A DNA stretch of 38,760 bases from an uncultured Roseivirgaceae bacterium (GCA_964406435.1 CAYORY010000001.1:1-38760), one strand, 5' to 3'. Positions 1,114 to 11,994 are shown, numbered from the stretch's first letter. Notes: generated by a model not told the origin, from the sequence alone. Made by a program: numbers and translations.

Positions 1114-1605
1114 TTAGAAGATGGTCAGCACGATGGTCTCAAAAAAAGCAAAGATGTTAGCCTTCTTTGTTCGTGTACAGAGGCTGGTTGTTAAATACTC
1201 ATCTGTTTTAGTACCAAGTCGAAATAGTTCGTTAGTGAGGTATCCATAAACTAGATGAGTTGTCCCCTCATCAAACCAGTTCCCACAATCAGCCCCACCG
1301 CCGGTTGTTCTGATCTTTAAAACTTCAGAGTCCCTAAACCTGTTCTTGCCTTTCTGAATGGATTTTACTTCGAATTCAAATTCGTAAATGTTATAGTCAA
1401 TATTACGAGTCTCGCCAGTTCCAGTCGTATATGATTCAGTAGTTGGGTATTCGGTGATTTTCGTAACAGTTCCCCGAAAAACAATGTCTGAATGTTTTTG
1501 AGCTTTGAAAATCCCAACTCGTCCGCAAGAACAAGCCATCACCTCAGTTGTTCCGATGAGGAGAAAAATTAGTAAAGTCAGAAGAGTTCTCTGCGTGAAG
1601 GTCAT
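1114..1605 (-). CDS. secreted TIMP/NTR-like protein (cassette cargo, about 163 aa)
   Basis: This is ORF 1114..1656 trimmed to MTFTQRTLLTLLIFLLIGTTEVMA|CSCG, because the upstream codons lie in attC-C. The signal peptide has a VMA cleavage motif that would expose an N-terminal Cys-x-Cys. The following sequence, CSCGRVGIFKAQKHSDIVFRGTV, resembles the N-terminus of mature TIMP-2 as recalled from memory ([24 protein letters not shown]). Confidence 0.55.
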   Translation of the reverse strand: MTFTQRTLLTLLIFLLIGTTEVMACSCGRVGIFKAQKHSDIVFRGTVTKITEYPTTESYTTGTGETRNIDYNIYEFEFEVKSIQKGKNRFRDSEVLKIRTTGGGADCGNWFDEGTTHLVYGYLTNELFRLGTKTDEYLTTSLCTRTKKANIFAFFETIVLTIF

Positions 1606-1608
1606 TGC

Positions 1609-1843
1609 TACTAACGACCAGCTATCGGGCGTATGTCCGCAGCTAGTGAATAGCACTAAAGTAGTGAAATCTGCCGAAGCTCACAACGGTTCCAAATGGC
1701 ATTGCGTTCTGAAAATTAAAACTCCTGCGCTCAAAAGCTGGTAGAAAGCACCGCCGTATCTCAGCGGCAGATATCACGGTCGAGTTGCACTGAAACCATC
1801 CAGAATGCACTGAGACATATGCCCGATCAGCATTTTGTTAGCA
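1609..1843 (-). repeat. attC-like recombination site C (235 nt)
   Basis: The arm TAACGACCAGCTATCGGGCGTATGTC (1612-1637) pairs with GACATATGCCCGATCAGCATTTTGTTA (1814-1840). There is an inner pairing of GTGAAATCTGCCG with CGGCAGATATCAC. The conserved module lies at 1652-1675. Confidence 0.8.
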
Positions 1844-1846
1844 TCT

Positions 1847-2494
1847 TTATTTTAGTCGATAAGAAGCGGAAAATTGAAATGTTCTATTCTGAAATTTCGG
1901 GTTGTTATCACTCGATATTGGGTTACCGAATTCATCCGTTAACTGCGGTGCGCTAATGACAGATGTGAAGCCGTGAGTGTATCTCATTTCAAGCATTAGA
2001 TTATCACTCAGAGAATAGCTTAACCCAGCAGACAGACCAAAATCAAAATTATTATCAAAGTTTTCTTTAACATCAATTGTTTCAGAATCGAACTTTGACT
2101 TTGCAGATAATAAATACCCAAATTCCGGTCCAGCTAAAAATGAAAGTTTGTCAATGACTTTATAACTCACGAGCACTGGAAAATTTATGTAGTTCAGATG
2201 TATAGATCCATCTCCTGAAGGTTGAGCACCTTGAATTCCTTCGGATGAATAGCCCTTATTTGAAAAAAGTAATTCCGGCCTTATTGCAAAATTGTCTGAG
2301 AGTTTAATTTGTCCAAAAAGACCAGCATGATATCCCAACCTGTATTTGTTATCGCTATTACTTCCATCAGGAGTATTATCGACCACATTGTTGACATAGT
2401 TAACTCCTGCCTTGATACCAAACTGTGTTTGCGCTTGAGTATATTCAAAACTGGAGACAAGGATAAGCAATAGTATTGTGGCTCTATTTTTCAT
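1847..2494 (-). CDS. outer-membrane beta-barrel (porin-family / OMP_b-brl_2-like) protein (cassette cargo)
   Basis: Signal peptide MKNRATILLLILVSSFEYTQAQ. The body shows alternating hydrophobic beta-strand patterns (FGIKAGVNY, GYHAGLFGQ, RPELLFSNKG). It ends in an aromatic-rich terminal strand (FSASYRLK). Confidence 0.65.
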   Translation of the reverse strand: MKNRATILLLILVSSFEYTQAQTQFGIKAGVNYVNNVVDNTPDGSNSDNKYRLGYHAGLFGQIKLSDNFAIRPELLFSNKGYSSEGIQGAQPSGDGSIHLNYINFPVLVSYKVIDKLSFLAGPEFGYLLSAKSKFDSETIDVKENFDNNFDFGLSAGLSYSLSDNLMLEMRYTHGFTSVISAPQLTDEFGNPISSDNNPKFQNRTFQFSASYRLK

Positions 2495-2515
2495 TACTTC
2501 GTTTGGTTTTATTGA

Positions 2516-2747
2516 TGCTAACGACCAGCTATGCGCCGTGTGTCCACAGCTGCTAGATCATGATAAAGATAGCGGAACTGCCCAACACCGATGAAGTGTC
2601 TACGAAGAAATGCGTTCCACAAGTCTAAGTCCAGAAGTAAAGAAGGAGGGGCGGGAGATGAAATATCAGAATGGGCGGTGTAGCGGGCGAGTCCCGATGC
2701 ACTTTCAGAAAGCACTATGACACATGGCGGATGAGCGTCTGTTAGAT
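2516..2747 (-). repeat. attC-like recombination site D (232 nt)
   Basis: The arm TAACGACCAGCTATGCGCCG (2519-) pairs with the CGGATGAGCGTCTGTTA end at 2744. A degenerate conserved module, ATGATAAAGATAGCGGAACTGCCC, lies at 2560-2583. The stop codon of the upstream cassette ORF (2744-2742) lies inside the GTTAGAT core. Confidence 0.75.
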
Positions 2748-3272
2748 GCTTTTAATTATGTGTTTTAATTCGTTCAGAAGTTCGTTCTCCTGTTCAGTTG
2801 GTTCAAGATAGCTTCCCTCAAGTCGAAATAGGTTGATCTTGTGTTCGGAGGTTAGACGCAGTTGAATGCTGTGAATGTATTCTTGAGAAGTTGGTTTAGT
2901 TGCAGTTGCATATTCATCAAAAAATTTCGAATGAAAGCCGATTTCTTTAATGTCCTCAAAACGTCTTGCCATTCTACCCCAGCGTTCTTCGATTGATTCA
3001 AATTTTCGATCTTTTAAGTTCAGAGTTAGGCTAGATTTCCCAGCAGTCTTAGATCCGGTTTTCAGCGTTATTATTATAACACCTATTAGAACAAGAATTC
3101 CCAAAATCAGAGAGAATGCCATTAGAAATAGAGATGGAAAAATCATGAAAACACCAAAAATTATGATCAAATAGCGGTTAGTGTTCGAATGCTTAATAGT
3201 AATCAGCTCCTCGGTCTGTTCAACCTTGTAGCCATTGTCGTTGAGAAGTTCGATAGAAGGTTTACTAAACAT
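2742..3272 (-). CDS. hypothetical membrane protein with a hydrophobic hairpin (2 TM) and a soluble C-terminal domain (cassette cargo)
   Basis: 176-aa ORF starting MFSKPSIELL. It has a long hydrophobic stretch, LIIIFGVFMIFPSLFLMAFSLILGILVLIGVIIITL. No family motif recognised. Confidence 0.55.
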   Translation of the reverse strand: MFSKPSIELLNDNGYKVEQTEELITIKHSNTNRYLIIIFGVFMIFPSLFLMAFSLILGILVLIGVIIITLKTGSKTAGKSSLTLNLKDRKFESIEERWGRMARRFEDIKEIGFHSKFFDEYATATKPTSQEYIHSIQLRLTSEHKINLFRLEGSYLEPTEQENELLNELKHIIKSI

Positions 3273-3289
3273 GCGGTAGTCAAAATTGC

Positions 3290-3421
3290 ATCTAACGGTC
3301 TCGTGTATGAGCAGTAGCGGATTTCAAGCCACATAACTGTCAGGTAGCACCGGCCTTTGATTAATAGTTTTAAGTTTCAAAATAGCACTGAACCCGCTAT
3401 TGCTTATACACAATGTTGTAT
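3290..3421 (-). repeat. attC-like recombination site E (132 nt; attC of the 5.2-kb cassette)
   Basis: The arm TAACGGTCTCGTGTATGAGCAGTAGCGG (3293-) pairs with CCGCTATTGCTTATACACAATGTTG (-3418). The length is classical for an attC. Its outer core, AATGTTGTATGCC (3412-3424), is the exact reverse complement of 8516-8528. Confidence 0.8.
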
Positions 3422-3542
3422 GCCCGTGCTTTTTCATTTTCTTTTTTGTCAGCGTTGGGGCAGCCGTACTCTTTGGCAAGTTTTGGCTTGTGTGGCTGCT
3501 TTGAGCGACTTGCCAATGTGTATGGATGCTTGCGGTTGCCAT

Positions 3543-6500
3543 TTAGTATCGTTCCAAGAATCTCCGTTGTCTTTCCCAGTCACCACTTTTTAAACAGCTT
3601 TCTATTCGCTCATTCAAATATTTCTTAATCGGGAGTAGTTTTATTCCCATTTGAGACTTATTGACTATAGCGAGAATATTTCGCCAGTCAGCTGCCTCAA
3701 TGTCTGCAAGTATTACATCCCCTGTTCCACTCGTTCCACTTCCTCTCCACATGATTTTGGAAAAAACCCCAACTTCCTGATTTATGGAAAGAAACAGCAA
3801 TAGCATTTCTTCAAATACTTCCTTCATTGAATGTCTTGCGATGTCCACAGCAACATTTACTTTTTGATGATCACTGTTGTTTGCTCGTACAAACTGAAAT
3901 AGAAAGTCCTTTGCCTTTTCCTTTGAATCTTCTGGTATATTTCTAAAGAAGGAGTTACAGAAGTGGTCGAGAATTCCGAAGTATGGTTCTCGCTCAATTA
4001 CTAAATCAAACACTTCAGTCAACACTGGTTCAATGCCATCTACTTGCCAAACAAATCCTAATCTTCTGTGATCTCCCGATAATCCAAATTTTCTTTCTGA
4101 GAATAAACTTTCTACGTATTCCATTAAGAACTGAGGGTCTTGCTTTAGAATGTTGAACATTCCTTTCCCTTCATAGTCAAAGTGGTTGTGAATCTTATCT
4201 TGTTGGATATACGCTTTCTTGATTAGGTCAATGTTATCCCCCAATTTGTCAAAATGAGTGCTGAAAAAGTCCATCCAAACCTGCAAGCCTGTGCCGTTCT
4301 CATTTTTCTCTACAATTTTTCTCAGAACAACTTGAAACAGGTTGGGTTCAATTGATAGAAACCGTTGCAGCCTGTCAAAATGGACTGTGTTCGAACCACT
4401 CATATTGCTTACCGTGTTCACTATAGCGTCAACGTAGCCCTTAGTCAGCAATGAATCCTCCAAATAATCGTAGAACGATAGCTCCCAATGAGCTTTAAGA
4501 TTGAAATCTTTACTTTGGATTATTGCCCAAATGTGCTCTGAAGATTCTGCAGTTTTCAGATGGTTTCGAAATACAACTCTCGGAATGTAATTTATTGTGT
4601 TATCAATTGCGATAACCTGATTTAATAGTTCACAGCCCAAATGAAAATCAAGACTGCAATTTTCGTCAATCACGAAATCAAGTGAATTATTATAATTCCA
4701 TTCATTCTTAGCTTTCTCCTTCAAGAACGTGAAAACTTTGATGAATTCTTCTACCTCAGTCCTTGTTTTGAAAACAAACGAAGTTCTTATTTCAGCTTCC
4801 TTCAGTCTTTCGTACTCTCGATAATCTTCGTATTCGTACATTTCCTTATCACGCAATATATCCCAATCAATTTTTAAATAGGTTTCGTAATCTGCATTGG
4901 TAAATGACTCTGCTAATGATGAAAATGAAGGGTGCAAAACAGAGTTCCTCTTACACCATCTTATCTGTTCGTGAACATACCTACAGTGTTCGAAATTATC
5001 GGGTGATAAATGCCTTTCAATTATGTCAATAACGTAAGGAACATCAAATTCCATTACCTCCCTAAGCACGTCTGGACTTACACTGGCATAACTCTGAAGG
5101 AGGCTGAAAGACTCGGCAGGAGAGTTGTTGAAGTCGTTTGCTACCGACACCCAAATATTTTTTCGGAACTCCTGGATTTCTTGACTATTTGGAATGGGAT
5201 ACTCATACCAATAAAACGAGTGATTGCGGCCTCCTTTTGTGTGTCGGAATTTGAAGGATAAAAATGTTTTAGATAATTCATAAAAAATAGAGGCACAGAG
5301 GTTGTCCTTTTTGTTTAAACCATCCAATAGTATTTGAAACAAAATTGACTGTCTTGCAAATCTGAACCTCTCATCATCTCTGTCAAACAGAAGCTGCTCA
5401 CGAATTTTGTGAATCAGTTCCGGTACATGCTCCGGCTTTTTCCGTACATATTCAATAGCCAATTCTAATGCATCGTTTAGATTGTTTGGAAATCGAAAAA
5501 ACTCTCCAAGCAACTCAATGACTTTATTCTTTTCATATGAAAAAGCATTGTTCTCATAAGTCACCTCAAAGCTTTCAGAAGTGGCATTTTCTAATGATTC
5601 TATAATGCCATAAATAAACGCCAATGATTCAGTTGACAGATAATACCAAAAAGCCGACAGAAATTTGAACCCTTTTTCTTCGTCATTCTTGATAGACTTC
5701 CAATGGTTTTGCAGATGTGGACGCAGTTTGTCCATTACTTTTTGCACTCCAAACGTGTTGTTTGCCGGAATCACACAATCTTTGAAGCGACTACTGTTGC
5801 TATCAAAATATTTACTCAGCAATACTTCAAATGAAAGTAGATTGTCCTTGATGAATGCCTTATAGAAGAAATAGGTTGATAAATTTTGCTCAGGAATTTT
5901 CACATGTTCAAACTGTATTTCAACCAATTCCAGTTTGTCTAGTTTATCTATAGCATCTATAAAGTGTGCATAGTCAATTTCAAAATTGTCAAGTATGGAG
6001 GTCACTAATTCCTTGTTCTTGTATGGGATGGTATAGAAGAATGCAATCAGACCAAGGCAGTTAATATTCAAGTCTTTCGCAAACTCCCCATCATCCTTGA
6101 TAAACGTTGAGAAGTAGTTTTCAAATAAATCTGATACATCTGCCAAGGCATATATATTCTGTTCAGCCTTTGCAAGTAGGGCAGTCATTATTGCCAATCG
6201 CGGATTTCCATCCGCAATGCGAACAATTTCATTGTGATAATCCTGATTTAGAATTTCGAAAGGCGTTGCCTTAACAATATCCGTAATCTGCTCATCTGAG
6301 AACTTGGATAAGTCTATTCTTTTGGGCGAAAATTCTTGACATAGTATTCCAATATCTTGGAACGCATAGTCTCTGACTGTAATCAGAATCTTTAACTTGC
6401 CTTTTTGGGTTGCTCTATAAAAAGTTGTTATTTGATTGAAAGCATCAATCCTATTTGCATCATCAACGAAAAGTATATGGTCCTTTTCGGAATCGAAATA

Positions 6501-7265
6501 CTGAAACAAATCATCGAGTAGTGTATGATGCTTATACGAAACACAATAAGCATCAAATTCATTGTTCTCCGCAAGGAATGCTTTTATCGCTTCGAGAGCT
6601 AATTTGGTTTTGCCAATTCCTGGCGCACCAGTCAGAATAATAAAATCATTCTGATGTATTGATTCGTTGAGGGTCTTGAGTTCTTCTTCCCGATGCAGGA
6701 ACGTATTATCAAGAGGGGTAGAGATGCCCGCGGATGCCTTGTTGTATTCTGCAATGAATTTTTCTATTGAAACAATTTGTCCAGTGTCTAATGGTAACCC
6801 CAAATACTCGTGGGTTAAATCCCTATGGTTCAAATGGAGTTCTATTGCCAACCAATCCAGATTGTAAATAGTAAGTACAATTCGGGTGTTAGCCAAAAGG
6901 TCATTTAACGCTTTTGTTTCCTTTGCTTTAGGATTGAAATTGACACAAAGAATAATCTCGGCTATTTGATTTACAGGAATGCCAGTCTTCGATTCATTGA
7001 GGCACTTTTGTACATCTTTTTTTAACTTGGAGAATCCATCTGAAACATTTGTAGAATGTTCAACGAAAATGAACTTACCATTTGGAAGAAGCAAAAAGGT
7101 ATCGGGAGTACCAGGTACAGTTTTCTGTTTGCCACTTTGGCTCCCGGCTCTTACTAAAGCCGAATAGTTACTATTCCTCAAAGCAAGAAAACTATCGCAT
7201 AACTCTTGGAAAGCAGCCGAGTTAATTGCTTTTAAAGCTTCTTCTATTGATTGTAGTCTACTCAC
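3543..7265 (-). CDS. STAND-class P-loop NTPase with a nuclease-like N-terminal domain and a long helical C-terminal domain (Avs/NLR-like candidate defence protein)
   Basis: 1240-aa ORF. Walker A is LTGAPGIGKTKLA (GAPGIGKT = nt 6606-6629). Walker B is HILFVDDANR (aa 263-272). A GxP-type motif, ADGNPRLAIM (GNPRLA = nt 6192-6209), resembles the NB-ARC GLPLA motif. The N-terminal about 170 aa contain PGTPDTF...FIFVEHST, reminiscent of PD-(D/E)xK nucleases. The C-terminal about 850 aa are helix-rich, with no catalytic motif seen. Confidence 0.85.
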   Translation of the reverse strand: MSRLQSIEEALKAINSAAFQELCDSFLALRNSNYSALVRAGSQSGKQKTVPGTPDTFLLLPNGKFIFVEHSTNVSDGFSKLKKDVQKCLNESKTGIPVNQIAEIILCVNFNPKAKETKALNDLLANTRIVLTIYNLDWLAIELHLNHRDLTHEYLGLPLDTGQIVSIEKFIAEYNKASAGISTPLDNTFLHREEELKTLNESIHQNDFIILTGAPGIGKTKLALEAIKAFLAENNEFDAYCVSYKHHTLLDDLFQYFDSEKDHILFVDDANRIDAFNQITTFYRATQKGKLKILITVRDYAFQDIGILCQEFSPKRIDLSKFSDEQITDIVKATPFEILNQDYHNEIVRIADGNPRLAIMTALLAKAEQNIYALADVSDLFENYFSTFIKDDGEFAKDLNINCLGLIAFFYTIPYKNKELVTSILDNFEIDYAHFIDAIDKLDKLELVEIQFEHVKIPEQNLSTYFFYKAFIKDNLLSFEVLLSKYFDSNSSRFKDCVIPANNTFGVQKVMDKLRPHLQNHWKSIKNDEEKGFKFLSAFWYYLSTESLAFIYGIIESLENATSESFEVTYENNAFSYEKNKVIELLGEFFRFPNNLNDALELAIEYVRKKPEHVPELIHKIREQLLFDRDDERFRFARQSILFQILLDGLNKKDNLCASIFYELSKTFLSFKFRHTKGGRNHSFYWYEYPIPNSQEIQEFRKNIWVSVANDFNNSPAESFSLLQSYASVSPDVLREVMEFDVPYVIDIIERHLSPDNFEHCRYVHEQIRWCKRNSVLHPSFSSLAESFTNADYETYLKIDWDILRDKEMYEYEDYREYERLKEAEIRTSFVFKTRTEVEEFIKVFTFLKEKAKNEWNYNNSLDFVIDENCSLDFHLGCELLNQVIAIDNTINYIPRVVFRNHLKTAESSEHIWAIIQSKDFNLKAHWELSFYDYLEDSLLTKGYVDAIVNTVSNMSGSNTVHFDRLQRFLSIEPNLFQVVLRKIVEKNENGTGLQVWMDFFSTHFDKLGDNIDLIKKAYIQQDKIHNHFDYEGKGMFNILKQDPQFLMEYVESLFSERKFGLSGDHRRLGFVWQVDGIEPVLTEVFDLVIEREPYFGILDHFCNSFFRNIPEDSKEKAKDFLFQFVRANNSDHQKVNVAVDIARHSMKEVFEEMLLLFLSINQEVGVFSKIMWRGSGTSGTGDVILADIEAADWRNILAIVNKSQMGIKLLPIKKYLNERIESCLKSGDWERQRRFLERY

Positions 7266-7272
7266 GATGATT

Positions 7273-7989
7273 TTAAATAAGCTTGTTAAGTTCGATTTTT
7301 AGCGAGTCCTTGAGTGTTTTTGAATCGGAATAGATTAAGAATCTTTGAGATTGGATATCAATAGGCAGATCTTTAGGTTCCTTTGAAATTAGTATGACTG
7401 ATTTGTCCAGTGCTTGAGCCACCCCAAGCTCATATAAGACATTAGGATTCCTTCCATTAATGTTAGCTATTATGATTCTTGCCTTGACCATATACCTAAG
7501 CATTTCAGGGAATATATCACCCTTAAACTCTTGTTCATCTCCTCTGATGCAATTAAACCCTGCACTTGAACAAACCTCCTTGATGGTCATAAACTCATTA
7601 TAAAATTGGCTATTAAAAGGAGTTAAGACAAAAACCAATCTGTTATCGATTTTAAGTTCATTCTCAGATATTCCATTTGCCTGAAGAAATTCGGAATAAT
7701 GAATTCTTCGATTAGTGCCCAAAGACTGATTATTTTCAAGATATTCCTGTCGTAGTAAAAGATGATTAACATCCCTCCATCGTTCTTCATTTTGCACTAA
7801 TCTGTCATTTAGTCCATACATTTTTTGCTCAAGAGAATGCCTTATGCTTTCAAGCATGGCCTTATTTTCTTCGCTATCATATCTGCTTTTCTTGAGATTG
7901 GAGTACAAAATGAAAGCTATTACACTAACGGAAATGCTTGCAATTGCTGTTATGATTATCGTAATGCTGCTAATTTCCATTTGACTCAT
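7273..7989 (-). CDS. membrane-anchored protein with a C-terminal nucleoside 2-deoxyribosyltransferase-like / TIR-like domain
   Basis: This is ORF 7273..8028; the likely start is MSQMEISS (ATG 7989-7987) or MEISS (7980). It has one N-terminal TM helix (ITIIITAIASISVSVIAFILY) and a coiled-coil linker. The domain (aa 129-240) reads VFVLTPFNSQ...KARIIIANINGRNPNVLYELGVAQALDKSVILISKE...LPIDI. The NVxYExG motif, with Glu at nt 7429-7431, is typical of that fold. Confidence 0.75.
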   Translation of the reverse strand: MSQMEISSITIIITAIASISVSVIAFILYSNLKKSRYDSEENKAMLESIRHSLEQKMYGLNDRLVQNEERWRDVNHLLLRQEYLENNQSLGTNRRIHYSEFLQANGISENELKIDNRLVFVLTPFNSQFYNEFMTIKEVCSSAGFNCIRGDEQEFKGDIFPEMLRYMVKARIIIANINGRNPNVLYELGVAQALDKSVILISKEPKDLPIDIQSQRFLIYSDSKTLKDSLKIELNKLI

Positions 7990-8392
7990 TTTTTGGTTCG
8001 ATATTCTCAATTTGGGCTTTTTCTTCACTATTCAACAGAATATCCATTGATTGTATTAAGGAGAAAATTGATATTGCCATATTCAAACAAAGTAGAAGCA
8101 CCCAGTAGTTGCTTTTATTTTCAAATAGCTTTAAACTTTTTCGCCACAAAATCACAACTACAACGGCCAGAACGATAAAAGCAATCGTGTAGAATAGCCC
8201 CGCACTCGGGTCTTTAGGTTCAGATATAGTAAATGCAATTAGAAATGATATAGAAAGGAAAATCATGTCAACCGGCAGTTCGCATATTGCCTGAATTAAA
8301 TTGGGAACCTCAATGTTTCTGTCAATCGCCAGTTTCAGAACGAATGCTAATACAAGCAATGTCAGGGGTAATATTATTTCCAAATGTTCCAT
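7970..8392 (-). CDS. small integral membrane protein (about 4 TM), first gene of the three-gene cassette operon
   Basis: 140-aa ORF starting MEHLEIILPLTLLVLAFVLKLAI. Four hydrophobic segments are followed by an acidic/polar tail. Its stop overlaps the start region of the next gene, which suggests translational coupling. Confidence 0.6.
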   Translation of the reverse strand: MEHLEIILPLTLLVLAFVLKLAIDRNIEVPNLIQAICELPVDMIFLSISFLIAFTISEPKDPSAGLFYTIAFIVLAVVVVILWRKSLKLFENKSNYWVLLLCLNMAISIFSLIQSMDILLNSEEKAQIENIEPKNESNGN

Positions 8393-8518: not shown

Positions 8519-8758
8519 ATACAACATTAATATAACGCGCACAGTGCGCGTTATTTCCATTTCATATTTTCGAGTGGTTACAGACCTATCTTTCTGATAG
8601 TCAGTGATAAATCCAAGTAATAAACGTTTGTAAGCGTTTATTGTCGGATATAAGCGCCACTCTCCCCACCAAGATAGCACCTATTCATGAATGACGGGGT
8701 GGTCGAGAACCTTTCGTATACCTAGGCGTCACTGAGCGTTTCGCCCCCATCGTTAACT
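8519..8758 (-). repeat. attC-like recombination site F (240 nt; outermost site of the array)
   Basis: The ends are ATACAAC (8519-8525) and GTTAACT (8752-8758). The right half is homologous to attC-A/C: GGTCGAG at 8701-8707 versus 1778-1784, CACTGAG at 8730-8736 versus 1808-1814, and a CGCCC..CGTTA end. It contains a perfect 11-bp-stem palindrome, ATAACGCGCAC-A-GTGCGCGTTAT, at 8532-8554. It is more diverged than A-E. Confidence 0.6.
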
Positions 8759-9576: not shown

Positions 9577-11994
9577 TTAAAATTGGATTCGGTACATCAT
9601 GTCCGGGAAGAAACCGATTTGGTTGACCGGGTTAATCTGATCGGTGACGCTGTTGTATCGTCGCACAAATTCGTTCTCGCGGTTGGTCACATTTTGCAGA
9701 TCTACGAAGAACTGGTGGGATACTTTCTTGCGGTTCAATCGCACGCCGAACTTCACATCCCAACGGAAATACTCGCCATAACTTTGGCTGAAGGCCTGAT
9801 CTTCGAACCGAACCTCCCGGCCTGCATTGGCGCGTGTGCCATCAATATCGATCGGGGTGAAAGGTCGTCCTCCCGCTGAGGTCACTTTGGAATCGAAAGT
9901 CCAGGCGTTTTGGTTGTTGGAACCAAATTTCCATTCTTTACCGAAGAGGATGTTCGCTACATAGTTGCTATTGAATGCCGTGTTTCGCTGCACCCCGTCG
10001 CTACCCTTGTATTGCGAGTCGAAAATGGAAGTAGTGAAAAGCAGGTAGTAATCCCGGCTGAAGAATTTTTCCAGTGTCAATTCTACTCCGATATTCTGAC
10101 CGGTTCCACCATTCACCAATGAGCCTTTTTCTTCGAAAATGAAATCTGATCCTTCGTTCAGCACAGAGTAGCTGGTGGGCGTTGCATCCACAGGCACATC
10201 GTACAGACTTTGGTAATACAGCTCCGTTTTCAGTCTCCAATCGGGGGCGAGCTTTCGGTCATATCCTAGCACAAAATGATGTGCATTCATGAAATCAAGT
10301 TGGTCGTTGGTGGCCTCCGTCACACCGGGTGAGACTTCCTCCCGATAGAACAGAACAGGGGCGGGGATGGCTTGACCGTGAAGGCCGTAAGCCAAACTCC
10401 ATCGTTGTTCGGGTGAGCTTTGCCAGCTTATCGCTGCGCGTGGTTCTAGTATGAAATCATTGGTATAGCCGTGGTACTGGCTGTGTAGCCCAAAGGTCAC
10501 GTCCAGGTCGTTGGTGATTTTGTATTCCGCTTGCGCAAAAGCCTGTGTCAGCTGATAGATTTCGTTCAGGTCATTGTATCGAATGAAATAATCAGGGATA
10601 GAGTCGTTGTTTGCATCCGGAATCTCGGCACGGTCGTCTCGGTCTTCGCCGAAAAGATTCATGTCGTAGGTCTCATTCAGAATGCCCACGTTCATACTCC
10701 AGCGTGCGTTGAATTTATGATTGAATCGAGTGAAAAAGGTGTACCGATTTTCACGGGTCTCTGAATTCACGGCCCGGTAGTCTTTGATCAGTTCGTCATT
10801 GTCGTCCAAAATTCGATTGTCCTGGTAGTAGCTATTGAAATTGGTCGAAGAGGCAATCGACGTTTTAAGGAAACTATTCTGACCAAATCGAATGGTGTTG
10901 GTCAGCCCGATCAGCCCGATTTCACTTTCCACGAAAGCATCCTGCATGGGGTCTGCGAAAAGGTCGTCCTCGTTGATTTCTTCACCAAGGAAATCAATGT
11001 TGCTCAGGCCATACAACCCGAACAGCTCCACCCGACCGATCGGTGTTTCACCAAGATTTGCTTTGAAAGAAAGATCCTGATAATAGGGAGCAGCCGATGT
11101 GCCGGTAGCGGCCAAGCTGGCAATTCCGTAGCGGTAAGAGGTCACGAAGGATGAGCCATTTTTTCGGCTGATCGGTCCCTCAGCCATGAACTCCAGCCCA
11201 GTATAGGCCGAAAGCTGACCAGTGAATTCGTAGGTGTCCGTGTTTCCATTTCGGAAGTTGATATCAAAAACTGCGGCGTTGGCATTGCCATATTCGGCAG
11301 GGAAGGCGCCTGTAAGGAAGTCGGAGGTGCGGAGCATGTTGGTGTTCAGCGCATTCACCGGACCGCCAGTGGTGCCCAGCGTGGAGAAGTGGTTGGTAGT
11401 GGGCACGGGGATGCCTTCCACTCTCCAAAGCAACCCGACCGGCGAGTTGCCACGAACGACAATGTCATTTCTGGCGTCATTGGTAGAATTGACCCCCGCG
11501 AACGAGGAAGCCAGTTTGGCCACATCATTTCGCCCGCCTGAGAAACGTGTCACTTCCTCCAAACTAAACGTGCGCGCGCTCACTTTCGCCAGATTATTGA
11601 TCGGTTGGTCTTTGTCTGCCTCGGCGGTGACCACTACTTCGGCGAGCTTTTCCACAGATTCTTCCATGGTTAAGCGCAAAACCACTTCTTTTCCTGAGGT
11701 TACCAGCACATTCGGCACAGTGAACGTCTCGTACCCTATGGACTGAACAACAAAAGTCTGTCGGCCCACCGGCACGTTCGGGATTCGGAAAATCCCATCG
11801 ATATCCGTGACAGCACCGAGTGGCGGATCAGAGTCAACGAGGATGACGGTCGCGCCAATCAACGGATACTCCGATTGTACATCGACGATGGTTCCTTTGA
11901 CGGTTTGCGTTTGCTGCGCAAATGCGGATGACAGCAAAAGGGTCAGCATCGCATAGGAGATAAAGGCAAGGGCTGTTTTGATACGTGGGTTCAT
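9577..11994 (-). CDS. TonB-dependent receptor with an N-terminal carboxypeptidase-regulatory-like domain
   Basis: The start is trimmed to MNPRIKTALAFISYAMLTLLLSSAFAQ (signal peptide, ATG 11994). The CarboxypepD_reg-like segment is GTIVDVQSEYPLIGATVILVD...DGIFRIPNVPVG. Plug motifs (RFSGGRNDV, VVRGNSP) are present, and the protein ends in the beta-barrel terminus YRIQF. Confidence 0.9.
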   Translation of the reverse strand: MNPRIKTALAFISYAMLTLLLSSAFAQQTQTVKGTIVDVQSEYPLIGATVILVDSDPPLGAVTDIDGIFRIPNVPVGRQTFVVQSIGYETFTVPNVLVTSGKEVVLRLTMEESVEKLAEVVVTAEADKDQPINNLAKVSARTFSLEEVTRFSGGRNDVAKLASSFAGVNSTNDARNDIVVRGNSPVGLLWRVEGIPVPTTNHFSTLGTTGGPVNALNTNMLRTSDFLTGAFPAEYGNANAAVFDINFRNGNTDTYEFTGQLSAYTGLEFMAEGPISRKNGSSFVTSYRYGIASLAATGTSAAPYYQDLSFKANLGETPIGRVELFGLYGLSNIDFLGEEINEDDLFADPMQDAFVESEIGLIGLTNTIRFGQNSFLKTSIASSTNFNSYYQDNRILDDNDELIKDYRAVNSETRENRYTFFTRFNHKFNARWSMNVGILNETYDMNLFGEDRDDRAEIPDANNDSIPDYFIRYNDLNEIYQLTQAFAQAEYKITNDLDVTFGLHSQYHGYTNDFILEPRAAISWQSSPEQRWSLAYGLHGQAIPAPVLFYREEVSPGVTEATNDQLDFMNAHHFVLGYDRKLAPDWRLKTELYYQSLYDVPVDATPTSYSVLNEGSDFIFEEKGSLVNGGTGQNIGVELTLEKFFSRDYYLLFTTSIFDSQYKGSDGVQRNTAFNSNYVANILFGKEWKFGSNNQNAWTFDSKVTSAGGRPFTPIDIDGTRANAGREVRFEDQAFSQSYGEYFRWDVKFGVRLNRKKVSHQFFVDLQNVTNRENEFVRRYNSVTDQINPVNQIGFFPDMMYRIQF

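What the first reader, a model, noticed from the sequence alone, without database searches (positions are those of the whole stretch)
3543..7265. 1240-aa tripartite protein: PD-(D/E)xK-like N-terminus, NB-ARC-like NTPase and about 850-aa helical C-terminus
Seen directly in the translation:
- Walker A, GAPGIGKT (aa 213-220)
- Walker B, ILFVDDA (aa 264-270)
- a downstream LKILITVRDY strand
- ADGNPRLAIM (aa 351-360), which resembles the GLPLA motif that closes the NB-ARC/STAND module
The first about 170 aa contain TPD(55)TF..x13..FVE(69)HST followed by a Lys-rich helix (SKLKKD). This is compatible with a restriction-endonuclease fold in which the canonical Lys has migrated, but the match is weak.
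The remaining about 850 aa are rich in L/F/Y/E/K heptad-like helices with no catalytic motif, as expected for a ligand or phage-protein sensor.
Many antisense ORFs of 60-85 aa overlap it and are noise.
Basis: partly seen in the sequence, partly recalled or inferred. Interest (0 to 1): 0.75.

Follow-up and report, generated by a model that had tools for sequence, protein, structure and literature searches.

The report
Uncharacterised nuclease-STAND antiviral sensor protein

Summary
The ORF is real.

- **NTPase:** It passes Pfam's threshold for nSTAND3, the STAND clade also found in Avs5. It does not pass for NB-ARC.
- **N-terminal domain (aa 1-~160):** An AlphaFold2 model matches only PD-(D/E)xK folds, with Avs4's nuclease domain best, but weakly (E 9e-3). 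D55, E69, T72, K80 and D84 are near-invariant. The canonical Lys position is Ser/Thr.
- **Rest of the protein (aa 187-1240):** It models confidently (pLDDT 88.5) as NBD, helical domain and winged helix, then an exportin-like alpha-solenoid. It is not a coiled coil.
- **Family:** More than 1000 clusters at 50% identity share the N-terminal domain, and most full-length ones are about 1240 aa. Copies occur on Bacillus and Leptospira plasmids and next to integrases and restriction genes. No PADLOC Avs model matches.
- **New here:** In 6 of 9 independently sampled loci the gene ends a three-gene operon. The first gene encodes a 4-TM protein and the second a membrane-anchored nucleoside-deoxyribosyltransferase/TIR-like protein. 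Each part also occurs without the other.

Best reading: an uncharacterised Avs-type nuclease STAND. Defence activity, nuclease activity and the trigger are all untested.

The parts
3543..7265 (-). Full ORF of the 1240-aa STAND protein (GTG start at 7265, stop codon at 3543-3545)
   Evidence: Full-length homologues are 61-85% identical.
6786..7265 (-). aa 1-~160: restriction-endonuclease-like (PD-(D/E)xK, Mrr/Avs4-like) putative effector domain. Candidate active-site residues are D55, E69, T72, K80 and D84. A near-invariant Gly/Lys loop lies at aa 41-49.
   Evidence: AlphaFold2 model, pLDDT 80.8. Foldseek best hit is Avs4 8dgf_B (E 9e-3, TMq 0.53), followed by other PD-(D/E)xK folds. 18 of 27 members give weak hits to Pfam L_protein_N.
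5841..6707 (-). aa 187-~475: STAND NOD module made of a P-loop NBD, a helical domain and a winged helix. The NBD carries Walker A 213-220, Walker B 264-270 and sensor-1 R298. The helical domain carries the GxP-type motif GNPRLA at 353-358. The winged helix carries invariant Q460.
   Evidence: Pfam nSTAND3 PF20720 matches aa 195-325 with E 2.7e-11, above the gathering score. Foldseek hits are Avs5 (9jap, 9nc9), SSO1545, Orc1/Cdc6, NRC3 and MalT.
3546..5840 (-). aa 476-1240: all-alpha solenoid with about 45 helices and one beta-hairpin at aa 672-690, the presumed ligand sensor. It is conserved along its whole length, with no hypervariable patch.
   Evidence: AlphaFold2 pLDDT is mostly above 90. 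Foldseek hits are CRM1/exportin/karyopherin-type solenoids (E 1e-5, TM 0.17-0.24). No Pfam hit. Column identity is 0.63-0.95.
7273..7980 (-). Gene B, 235 aa (the ORF list extends it to a GTG at 8028). It has an N-terminal TM helix, a coiled coil and a C-terminal nucleoside 2-deoxyribosyltransferase/TIR-like domain with an invariant YELG Glu (E184). It ends 7 nt before the STAND start codon.
   Evidence: B is found immediately upstream of the STAND gene in the window, L001, L004/5, L006, L011, L012, L013, L014 and L015.
7970..8392 (-). Gene A, 140 aa, a four-TM membrane protein with no family assignment. It overlaps the start of gene B by 11 nt.
   Evidence: Hydropathy analysis. Homologues are 39-76% identical at the same position in L001, L004/5, L006, L011 and L012. 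No significant Pfam hit and no PADLOC or PHROGs hit.
8532..8554 (.). Perfect 10-bp GC-rich hairpin in the 395-nt gap between the upstream SDR gene and gene A. It is the likely boundary of the A-B-STAND transcription unit.
   Evidence: G+C falls to 0.355-0.395 across 2001-8000, against 0.40-0.53 in the rest of the window.

Best explanation
The gene encodes an uncharacterised, horizontally mobile antiviral STAND (bacterial NLR-like, 'Avs-type') receptor. Its architecture is a restriction-endonuclease-like effector, an nSTAND3 NTPase switch and an alpha-solenoid sensor.

Proposed mechanism, by analogy with Avs3/Avs4 and Avs5:
1. The resting protein is an autoinhibited monomer.
2. The solenoid binds a conserved phage protein that has not been identified.
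3. Binding releases the NOD module to bind ATP and oligomerise.
4. Oligomerisation brings the N-terminal PD-(D/E)xK domains together into active nuclease assemblies.
5. These cut DNA and abort the infection.

Shown here: the three-module architecture, intact ATPase motifs, near-invariant acidic and basic residues in the N-terminal fold, mobility, and frequent defence-island or mobile-element context.

Inferred: the trigger, oligomerisation, nuclease activity and the abortive outcome.

In many Bacteroidota the gene is the third cistron of an operon. The first two products are a 4-TM protein and a membrane-anchored NDT/TIR-like N-glycosidase-fold protein. These are most likely a separable accessory or second effector module, because each part also occurs without the other.
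For: **NTPase**
- nSTAND3 scores above Pfam's threshold.
- Walker A, Walker B, sensor-1 Arg and the GNPR Arg are invariant in 107 relatives with 19-73% identity.

**Structure**
- The model of aa 187-1240 has pLDDT 88.5 and shows NBD, helical domain, winged helix and solenoid.
- Its closest defence structures are EfAvs5 9jap_A (E 7.8e-5, 634 columns) and the AVAST5 filament 9nc9.
- The Avs5 NTPase is also annotated as nSTAND3 (10.1101/2025.07.08.663546).
- The N-terminal model's best PDB hit is Avs4 8dgf_B, and its named hits are otherwise mostly PD-(D/E)xK nuclease folds.
- D55, E69, T72, K80 and D84 are near-invariant.

**Mobility**
- The cassette sits in a low-GC stretch.
- A Bacillus cereus plasmid carries a copy 57% identical, next to a restriction endonuclease. 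Leptospira plasmids carry copies 41% identical.
- The N-terminal domain has been swapped between otherwise 81-91% identical alleles.

**Neighbours elsewhere**
- Type ISP restriction enzyme, DUF2971, AbiTii, integrases, AAA_15/21 ATPase, HD and SEFIR/TIR genes.
- Solo copies exist (L002, L007, L009, L016-L019), so the protein must carry its own effector.
Against: - No experiment exists for any member of the family.
- No PADLOC Avs model matches. The only hit is a P-loop-only match to mad8.
- The nuclease-fold assignment rests on weak Foldseek scores (best E 9e-3, none <=1e-3). There is no sequence-level hit to any nuclease family.
- The canonical (D/E)xK lysine is replaced by Ser/Thr. I could not inspect model coordinates to see whether K80 or K46 reaches the acidic pair.
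- The sensor is unusually uniform (63-95% column identity, fixed length), with no diversifying patch.
- In the window itself the neighbours are housekeeping-type genes (OMP, SDR, TonB receptor), not defence genes.
Confidence: 0.62

Rival explanations
1. This is an integrated three-component, membrane-coupled system. The STAND protein is mainly the sensor and switch. Its REase-like head acts as an adaptor or DNA-binding module. The real killing activity is gene B's membrane-anchored NDT/TIR-like N-glycosidase (NAD+ or nucleotide depletion), working with the 4-TM protein A.
For: - A-B-STAND are contiguous or overlapping cistrons (11-nt overlap, 7-nt gap) in the window. The same order is found in 6 of 9 unbiased loci and in 3 of 3 loci found through B.
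- All 47 B homologues hit PF05014, and the catalytic YELG Glu aligns with DNPH1/Rcl.
- PADLOC's TIR effector model hits B at E 3.7e-7.
- NDT-like proteins are the effector genes associated with type II retrons (PMC7736814).
- Rare relatives carry a TIR_2-like domain fused to the N-terminus of the same STAND, and the one such locus inspected lacks A/B.
- The canonical nuclease Lys is missing.
Against: - The STAND occurs alone in Fibrella, L007, L009, and on Bacillus cereus and Leptospira plasmids.
- An A-like plus B-like pair occurs alone on a Bacillus albus plasmid, with no STAND within 6 kb.
- A/B and STAND identities are discordant between loci, which suggests shuffling of independent modules.
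- The polar residues of the REase-like domain are invariant, as expected of an enzyme.
- The TIR_2 hit is below Pfam's threshold, and the extension shows no similarity to B.
Confidence: 0.2
2. This is a non-immune STAND/AAA+ protein. It could be a signal-transducing regulator or a DNA-transaction factor (MalT-, Orc1/Cdc6- or SSO1545-like) carried by mobile elements for their own maintenance. In that case the REase-like head would bind DNA rather than destroy it.
For: - Foldseek also returns SSO1545 (TMt 0.50), Orc1/Cdc6 (0.47), ORC, RuvB and MalT for the NTPase.
- The protein is very uniform in length and sequence, with no diversifying sensor.
- The Leptospira plasmid copy lies near parA/parB.
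- The window neighbours are not defence genes.
Against: - Pfam places the NTPase in nSTAND3, with ATPase_2, AAA_16 and NB-ARC all below threshold.
- No HTH or other output domain was found.
- The distribution is patchy and crosses phyla, with 57% identity between Bacteroidota and Bacillus.
- Restriction, Abi, integrase and DUF2971 genes recur as neighbours.
- Pseudogenisation (L010) and domain swapping are typical of dispensable defence genes.
Confidence: 0.1

Closest known systems
Avs4 (AVAST type 4; EcAvs4, PDB 8dgf), an Mrr-type nuclease STAND that senses the phage portal
   Same: It has the same tripartite logic: an N-terminal PD-(D/E)xK-fold effector, a STAND NTPase and a large helical sensor in one polypeptide of more than 1200 aa. 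Avs4 is the best structural match of the N-terminal domain.
   Different: - The match is weak (E 9e-3, 14% identity).
- Avs4 is not among the 50 best structural matches of aa 187-1240.
- No PADLOC Avs model hits.
- The active-site signature differs: E-x-S/T with Lys on the next helix, instead of (D/E/Q)xK.
- The trigger is unknown.
Avs5 (AVAST type 5; SIR2-STAND; PDB 9jap, 9nc9)
   Same: It shares the Pfam NTPase family, nSTAND3 PF20720. It is the closest defence-STAND structure for the NOD and the proximal sensor (E 7.8e-5, 520-634 aligned columns). Its sensor is also alpha-helical.
   Different: - The effector here is REase-like, not SIR2.
- Sequence similarity outside the Pfam model is undetectable.
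- No PADLOC hit.
- The sensor's other structural matches are exportin/karyopherin-type solenoids, whereas the Avs5 preprint describes TPR, Sel1-like or PPR repeats.
- It is often co-operonic with two membrane proteins.
NDT-like effector proteins of type II retrons (for example Retron-Sen2 and Retron-Eco1), and Cap12/PycTIR-type TIR effectors. These are relevant to gene B only.
   Same: Gene B has a nucleoside 2-deoxyribosyltransferase/TIR-type Rossmannoid fold with a conserved catalytic Glu, encoded beside a sensor or switch gene. The retron NDT-like proteins are also predicted to have a single TM helix.
   Different: - B has an N-terminal TM helix and a coiled coil, and no DNA-binding or cyclic-nucleotide-binding domain.
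- It is paired with a 4-TM protein.
- The window's B scores below Pfam's threshold (21 against 28.8 bits).
- Its substrate is unknown.

Membership tests
STAND NTPase, Pfam nSTAND3 (PF20720) | Profile HMM score above the curated gathering threshold | tested here: met
   43.8 bits against 27.2, E 2.7e-11, aa 195-325. All 120 listed homologues carry PF20720.
STAND NTPase, Pfam nSTAND3 (PF20720) | Intact Walker A, Walker B, sensor-1 Arg and GxP-type motif, followed by a winged helix and a C-terminal repeat superstructure | tested here: met
   G213, G216, G218, K219, D268, D269, R298 and R356 are invariant. AlphaFold2 shows NBD, helical domain, winged helix and solenoid.
NB-ARC / AP-ATPase clade (PF00931) | Profile HMM score above the gathering threshold | tested here: not met
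   20.3 bits against 23.5, and only aa 197-240 (the P-loop) aligned.
PD-(D/E)xK nuclease superfamily (Mrr-like) | alpha-beta-beta-beta-alpha-beta core fold | tested here: inconclusive
   The AlphaFold2 topology fits. Avs4 is the top hit, and the named Foldseek hits are mostly PD-(D/E)xK folds, but the best E is 9e-3 and none reaches 1e-3. No sequence-profile hit to a nuclease family passes threshold.
PD-(D/E)xK nuclease superfamily (Mrr-like) | Catalytic D ... (D/E)xK triad | tested here: inconclusive
   PD55 and E69 are near-invariant and lie on adjacent strands. The K position (71) is S/T. K80 and D84 on the following helix, and K46 in the preceding loop, are near-invariant candidates. Their spatial proximity could not be checked because no coordinates were available.
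PD-(D/E)xK nuclease superfamily (Mrr-like) | Metal-dependent nuclease activity | not testable with these tools
   This needs a biochemical assay.
Named Avs families in PADLOC-DB v2 (AVAST types I-V) | Match to the family's HMM | tested here: not met
   The only PADLOC hit is mad8, E 2.8e-6, restricted to aa 191-279.
Avs-type antiviral STAND (functional class) | Phage protection, and activation by a phage protein | not testable with these tools
   Only context evidence is available: restriction, Abi, integrase and DUF2971 neighbours and plasmid carriage.
Defence-associated STAND clades and sensor clusters of Lee et al. 2026 (PMC13581612) | Placement in one of the 198 defence-scored clades or 684 sensor clusters | not tested
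   The supplementary tables are not held. The main text mentions neither Bacteroidota nor this architecture.
Nucleoside 2-deoxyribosyltransferase-like (PF05014), gene B | HMM score above threshold and a conserved catalytic Glu | tested here: inconclusive
   The window's B scores 20.9-21.1 bits against 28.8. All 47 homologues hit PF05014 (best 7.3e-7), and many carry a precomputed PF05014 assignment. E184 in YELG is invariant and aligns with the DNPH1/Rcl Glu.

The most novel reading that the evidence does not exclude
A-B-STAND is one integrated machine and a previously undescribed class of STAND immunity. A cytoplasmic NLR-like sensor carries its own nuclease. On activation it also engages a membrane-anchored NDT/TIR-like N-glycosidase and its 4-TM partner. 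DNA cleavage would then be coupled to nucleotide or NAD+ destruction, or to a membrane event. The rare TIR-fused relatives would be the single-chain version of the same design.
Probability: 0.2. Interest if true: 0.7.

Novelty: new variant of a known kind. Interest (0 to 1): 0.5.

Why it matters
STAND/NLR-like receptors are now recognised as a major arm of bacterial immunity, but the characterised families come almost entirely from Proteobacteria.

This family is large. More than 1000 clusters at 50% identity share the N-terminal domain. It has a fixed architecture, is centred on Bacteroidota and has spread to Bacillus, Leptospira and cyanobacterial plasmids.

It combines an Avs4-like nuclease head with an Avs5-type NTPase and an exportin-like sensor. 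No defence-annotation model captures it.

It offers three things:
- A tractable candidate for finding a new phage trigger in Bacteroidota.
- A variant PD-(D/E)xK active site.
- A natural experiment on how a cytoplasmic STAND and a membrane NDT/TIR-like module combine or work apart, because solo, paired and fused forms all exist.

Tried and rejected
- **+ strand translation** of the stated coordinates is full of stops, so the gene is on the minus strand.
- **PDB sequence and profile searches** gave nothing useful. The whole protein, the family profile and the N-terminal profile returned only P-loop matches or nothing.
- **Pfam on the N- and C-terminal parts alone** gave nothing above threshold.
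- **hhalign** of the N-terminal profile against an Mrr_cat_2 domain from L001 found no similarity.
- **BLASTP** of the extra N-terminal extension of P0385 against gene B found no similarity, so the 'fusion of B' idea is not supported at sequence level.
- **NCBIfam and PADLOC** gave only P-loop-level hits.
- **PHROGs and the phage genome collection** show that the STAND protein is not phage-encoded.
- **The sigma-70 promoter scan** was no better than shuffles, and it is not suited to Bacteroidota.
- **The search for related loci with a single protein** returned only 7 loci. Co-occurrence statistics therefore rest on a small sample plus a lower bound from contig-length matching: 34 of 120 clusters.
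- **The supplementary tables of Lee et al. 2026** were not available, so placement among their 589 clades could not be checked.
- **A coiled-coil reading of the C-terminus** was rejected in favour of a solenoid.
Full report
**1. Observation**

The stated interval is riddled with stops on the + strand. On the minus strand it is a single ORF, 3543..7265, with a GTG start and 1240 codons. Homologues begin MSRLQ..., which matches the window's (V→M)SRLQ start.

The few + strand ORFs that overlap it (for example 5010..5261) have no support.

The gene lies in a low-GC stretch, 0.355-0.395 across 2001-8000, against 0.40-0.53 in the rest of the window. The surrounding genes are ordinary Bacteroidota chromosomal genes: OMP beta-barrel, SDR, TonB-dependent receptor, a LytTR two-component system, a T9SS-sorted BNR protein, Sua5 and DnaJ.

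**2. The NTPase**

Pfam places aa 195-325 in nSTAND3 (PF20720) at 43.8 bits against a gathering score of 27.2. NB-ARC, ATPase_2, AAA_16, nSTAND5 and nSTAND6 all fall below their thresholds.

In an alignment of 107 relatives with 19-73% identity, these residues are invariant:
- G213, G216, G218 and K219 (Walker A)
- D268 and D269 (Walker B)
- R298 (TVR, sensor-1 position)
- Q460 and R701

An AlphaFold2 model of aa 187-1240 has mean pLDDT 88.5. It shows a five-stranded P-loop NBD, a helical domain, a winged helix with a beta-wing, and then about 45 helices.

Foldseek against the PDB returns, for the NOD region:
- EfAvs5 9jap_A (E 7.8e-5, 634 columns)
- AVAST5 filament 9nc9 (TMt 0.31-0.32)
- The archaeal AAA+ protein SSO1545 (TMt 0.50)
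- Orc1/Cdc6, NRC3 and MalT

The Avs5 NTPase is itself annotated as nSTAND3 (10.1101/2025.07.08.663546). 'NB-ARC-like' is therefore right at superfamily level, but the clade is nSTAND3.

**3. The C-terminus**

Residues ~476-1240 have no Pfam hit. Structurally they resemble HEAT/ARM-type solenoids such as CRM1/exportin, transportin and importin-13 (E about 1e-5, TM 0.17-0.24). This is generic solenoid similarity, not homology.

The region is not a heptad coiled coil. It is also not hypervariable: column identity among 112 close homologues is 0.63-0.95 throughout.

**4. The N-terminus**

The AlphaFold2 model of aa 1-190 has pLDDT 80.8. It has two helices and then a low-confidence loop (aa 38-51, part of a near-invariant stretch). 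A beta-hairpin follows (56-59 and 65-71), then a helix (77-89), a strand (101-108), a helix, a strand (130-134) and further helices.

Foldseek's named hits are mostly PD-(D/E)xK folds:
- **PDB:** Avs4 8dgf_B first (E 9e-3, probability 1.0, TMq 0.53, 167 columns), then MUS81-EME1, XPF, EcoT38I, Card1, MspJI, YaeQ and the RPB5 N-domain.
- **Viral library:** ERCC4, 'restriction endonuclease', Mrr-domain proteins, VRR-NUC and the bunyaviral L protein.

No hit reaches E 1e-3. At sequence level the only signal is weak: 18 of 27 family members hit L_protein_N, the N-terminus of the viral L protein (best E 1.7e-3).

G41, K46, G52, P54, D55, E69, T72, K80, D84 and C88 are invariant or nearly so, even in 20-40% identical relatives. 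D55 precedes strand 1 and E69 lies in strand 2, as in PD...(D/E)xK. The K position is Ser/Thr. K80-x3-D84 sits on the next helix, reminiscent of the K-x3-D part of the ERCC4 motif; I recall that motif from memory and did not test it.

I could not inspect the coordinates.

**5. Family and distribution**

A HMMER scan of 1.84 billion cluster representatives with aa 1-185 found 1012 clusters at E<=1e-3. Of the 150 listed, 99 are 1190-1300 aa long and the rest are mostly shorter, apparently truncated proteins. This head domain is therefore essentially dedicated to this architecture.

Named members are Flavobacteriaceae, Pontimicrobium, Arcicella, Fibrella, Empedobacter, Lewinella, Draconibacterium, Ohtaekwangia and Chitinophagaceae. 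They also include MAGs labelled Ignavibacteriae, Saprospiraceae, Cyclobacteriaceae and Haliscomenobacter, and Stomatobaculum.

Plasmid copies are found in three genera:
- Bacillus cereus: 57% identity over the full length, beside a restriction endonuclease and AAA ATPases.
- Leptospira: 13 plasmids, 41% identity.
- Aulosira.

There is no phage-genome copy. One allele, P0002, is 81-91% identical to the window protein over aa 141-1240 but 43% over aa 61-140, which indicates a head-domain swap. L010 carries a pseudogenised copy.

**6.

Two genes lie immediately upstream on the same strand.

- **Gene A** (7970..8392, 140 aa) has four hydrophobic segments.
- **Gene B** (7273..7980, 235 aa) has one N-terminal TM helix, a coiled coil and a C-terminal domain.

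The evidence on B's C-terminal domain is:
- It hits Nuc_deoxyrib_tr PF05014 in all 47 homologues tested (best 7.3e-7).
- It hits PADLOC's TIR effector model (E 3.7e-7).
- It aligns its invariant YELG glutamate with the corresponding Glu of DNPH1/Rcl, which I take from memory to be the catalytic residue.

A overlaps B by 11 nt, and B ends 7 nt before the STAND start codon. A perfect 10-bp hairpin at 8532-8554 separates the cassette from the SDR gene.

The same A-B-STAND order is present in L001, L004/5, L006, L011 and L012. It is also present in three loci reached through B homologues.

The association is facultative:
- The STAND gene is solo in Fibrella (L002/3), L007, L009, L016, L017, and on the Bacillus cereus and Leptospira plasmids.
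- An A-like plus B-like pair stands alone on a Bacillus albus plasmid, with no STAND within 6 kb.
- Identities are discordant. L011 shows A 76%, B 77% and STAND 68%. L001 shows A 39%, B 63% and STAND 74%.
- Rare relatives (P0385, P0284/P0411) carry an extra ~160-aa N-terminal extension. In P0284 it gives a sub-threshold, full-length TIR_2 match (E 9e-4). The P0385 locus lacks A/B and lies beside an integrase, an AAA_15/21 ATPase and DUF2971.

**7. Mechanism**

Most likely (confidence 0.62) this is an Avs-type immune receptor. The solenoid binds a phage protein, the nSTAND3 module binds ATP and oligomerises, and the clustered REase-like heads cut DNA, aborting infection.

The architecture, the intact motifs, mobility and frequent defence or mobile-element neighbours are shown here. 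The trigger, oligomerisation, nuclease activity and outcome are inferred from Avs3/4/5 precedent.

Solo copies argue that the protein carries its own effector. A/B is best seen as a separable membrane NDT/TIR-like module, either an independent two-gene system that has become operon-linked in Bacteroidota or a second effector arm. NDT-like proteins are the effector genes associated with type II retrons (PMC7736814).

There are two rivals:
- An integrated three-component system in which B is the main effector (0.2).
- A non-immune STAND/AAA+ regulator or maintenance factor (0.1).

**8. Comparison and novelty**

The protein works like Avs4 (nuclease head) and shares its NTPase family with Avs5, but it fails membership of either. 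No PADLOC Avs model hits. Avs4 is not among the 50 best structural matches of aa 187-1240. There is no SIR2 domain.

Databases label it only 'nSTAND3 domain-containing NTPase', 'ATP-binding protein' or 'hypothetical protein'.

I rate it a new variant of a known kind. It is an uncharacterised head, NTPase and sensor combination with a non-canonical nuclease signature and a facultative membrane module.

A specialist would not be very surprised by another nuclease-STAND. The operon with A/B and the existence of solo, paired and fused forms are the more interesting part. Interest: 0.5.

Noticed in passing
L020 5385-6588 (Bacillus albus plasmid NZ_CP128151.1): An A-like multi-TM protein (144 aa, 30% identity, E 7e-12) and a B-like TM-NDT protein (259 aa, 37-40% identity, E 1e-52) overlap as a pair. 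No STAND homologue lies within 6 kb. A/B therefore looks like an autonomous two-gene membrane module and possibly a system in its own right.
   Followed up: partly
L018 5001-8723 (Bacillus cereus plasmid NZ_CP085502.1); L019 (Leptospira interrogans pLiSL7): Full-length STAND homologues sit on plasmids of other phyla: 57% identity in Bacillus, and 41% in 13 Leptospira plasmids. This implies cross-phylum horizontal transfer. The Bacillus copy lies beside a restriction endonuclease and AAA ATPases.
   Followed up: partly
Protein P0002 compared with window 3543-7265: The closest homologue is 81-91% identical over aa 141-1240 but only about 43% over aa 61-140. The REase-like head has been exchanged between two allelic types, 'VE-Y/H-ST-N' and 'VE-I/T-TT-D'.
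   Followed up: partly
Proteins P0385 (1396 aa, L016 5001-9191) and P0284/P0411 (1411 aa): Rare relatives carry an extra ~160-aa N-terminal extension before the REase-like domain. In P0284 it gives a sub-threshold but full-length TIR_2 match (E 9e-4). The P0385 locus has no A/B genes and lies next to an integrase, an AAA_15/21 ATPase and DUF2971.
   Followed up: partly
Window 7119-7145 (aa 41-49 of the STAND protein): The loop GSQSGKQKT is near-invariant across the family but modelled with very low confidence (pLDDT about 40). It sits just before the PD55 motif. It could be a flexible DNA- or phosphate-binding or regulatory loop.
   Followed up: no
Window 8532-8554: A perfect 10-bp GC-rich inverted repeat (ATAACGCGCAC...GTGCGCGTTAT) lies in the gap between the SDR gene and gene A. 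It is probably a bidirectional terminator marking the edge of the low-GC cassette.
   Followed up: no
L010 6001-9713 (Haliscomenobacter MAG): The STAND homologue there is broken into several ORFs, so it is a pseudogene. A small TIR-like ORF (10299-10700, 'ILELGYSIGKL') lies just downstream.
   Followed up: no
L001, L002 and L016: DUF2971 genes recur within a few kb of the STAND gene in three unrelated loci, alongside a Type ISP restriction enzyme (L001) or integrases (L002, L016).
   Followed up: no
L001, L004, L006, L011 and L012 compared with the window: Sequence identities of A/B and of the STAND gene are discordant between loci. L011 has the most similar A/B (76-77%) but a less similar STAND (68%). 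L001, L006 and L012 show the reverse. This suggests recombination between the two modules.
   Followed up: partly
Window 2742-3272 (-) and 1114-1656 (-): Two ORFs downstream of the STAND gene (176 and 180 aa) have no significant family hit. The 176-aa one lies inside the low-GC stretch, and its relation to the cassette is unknown.
   Followed up: no
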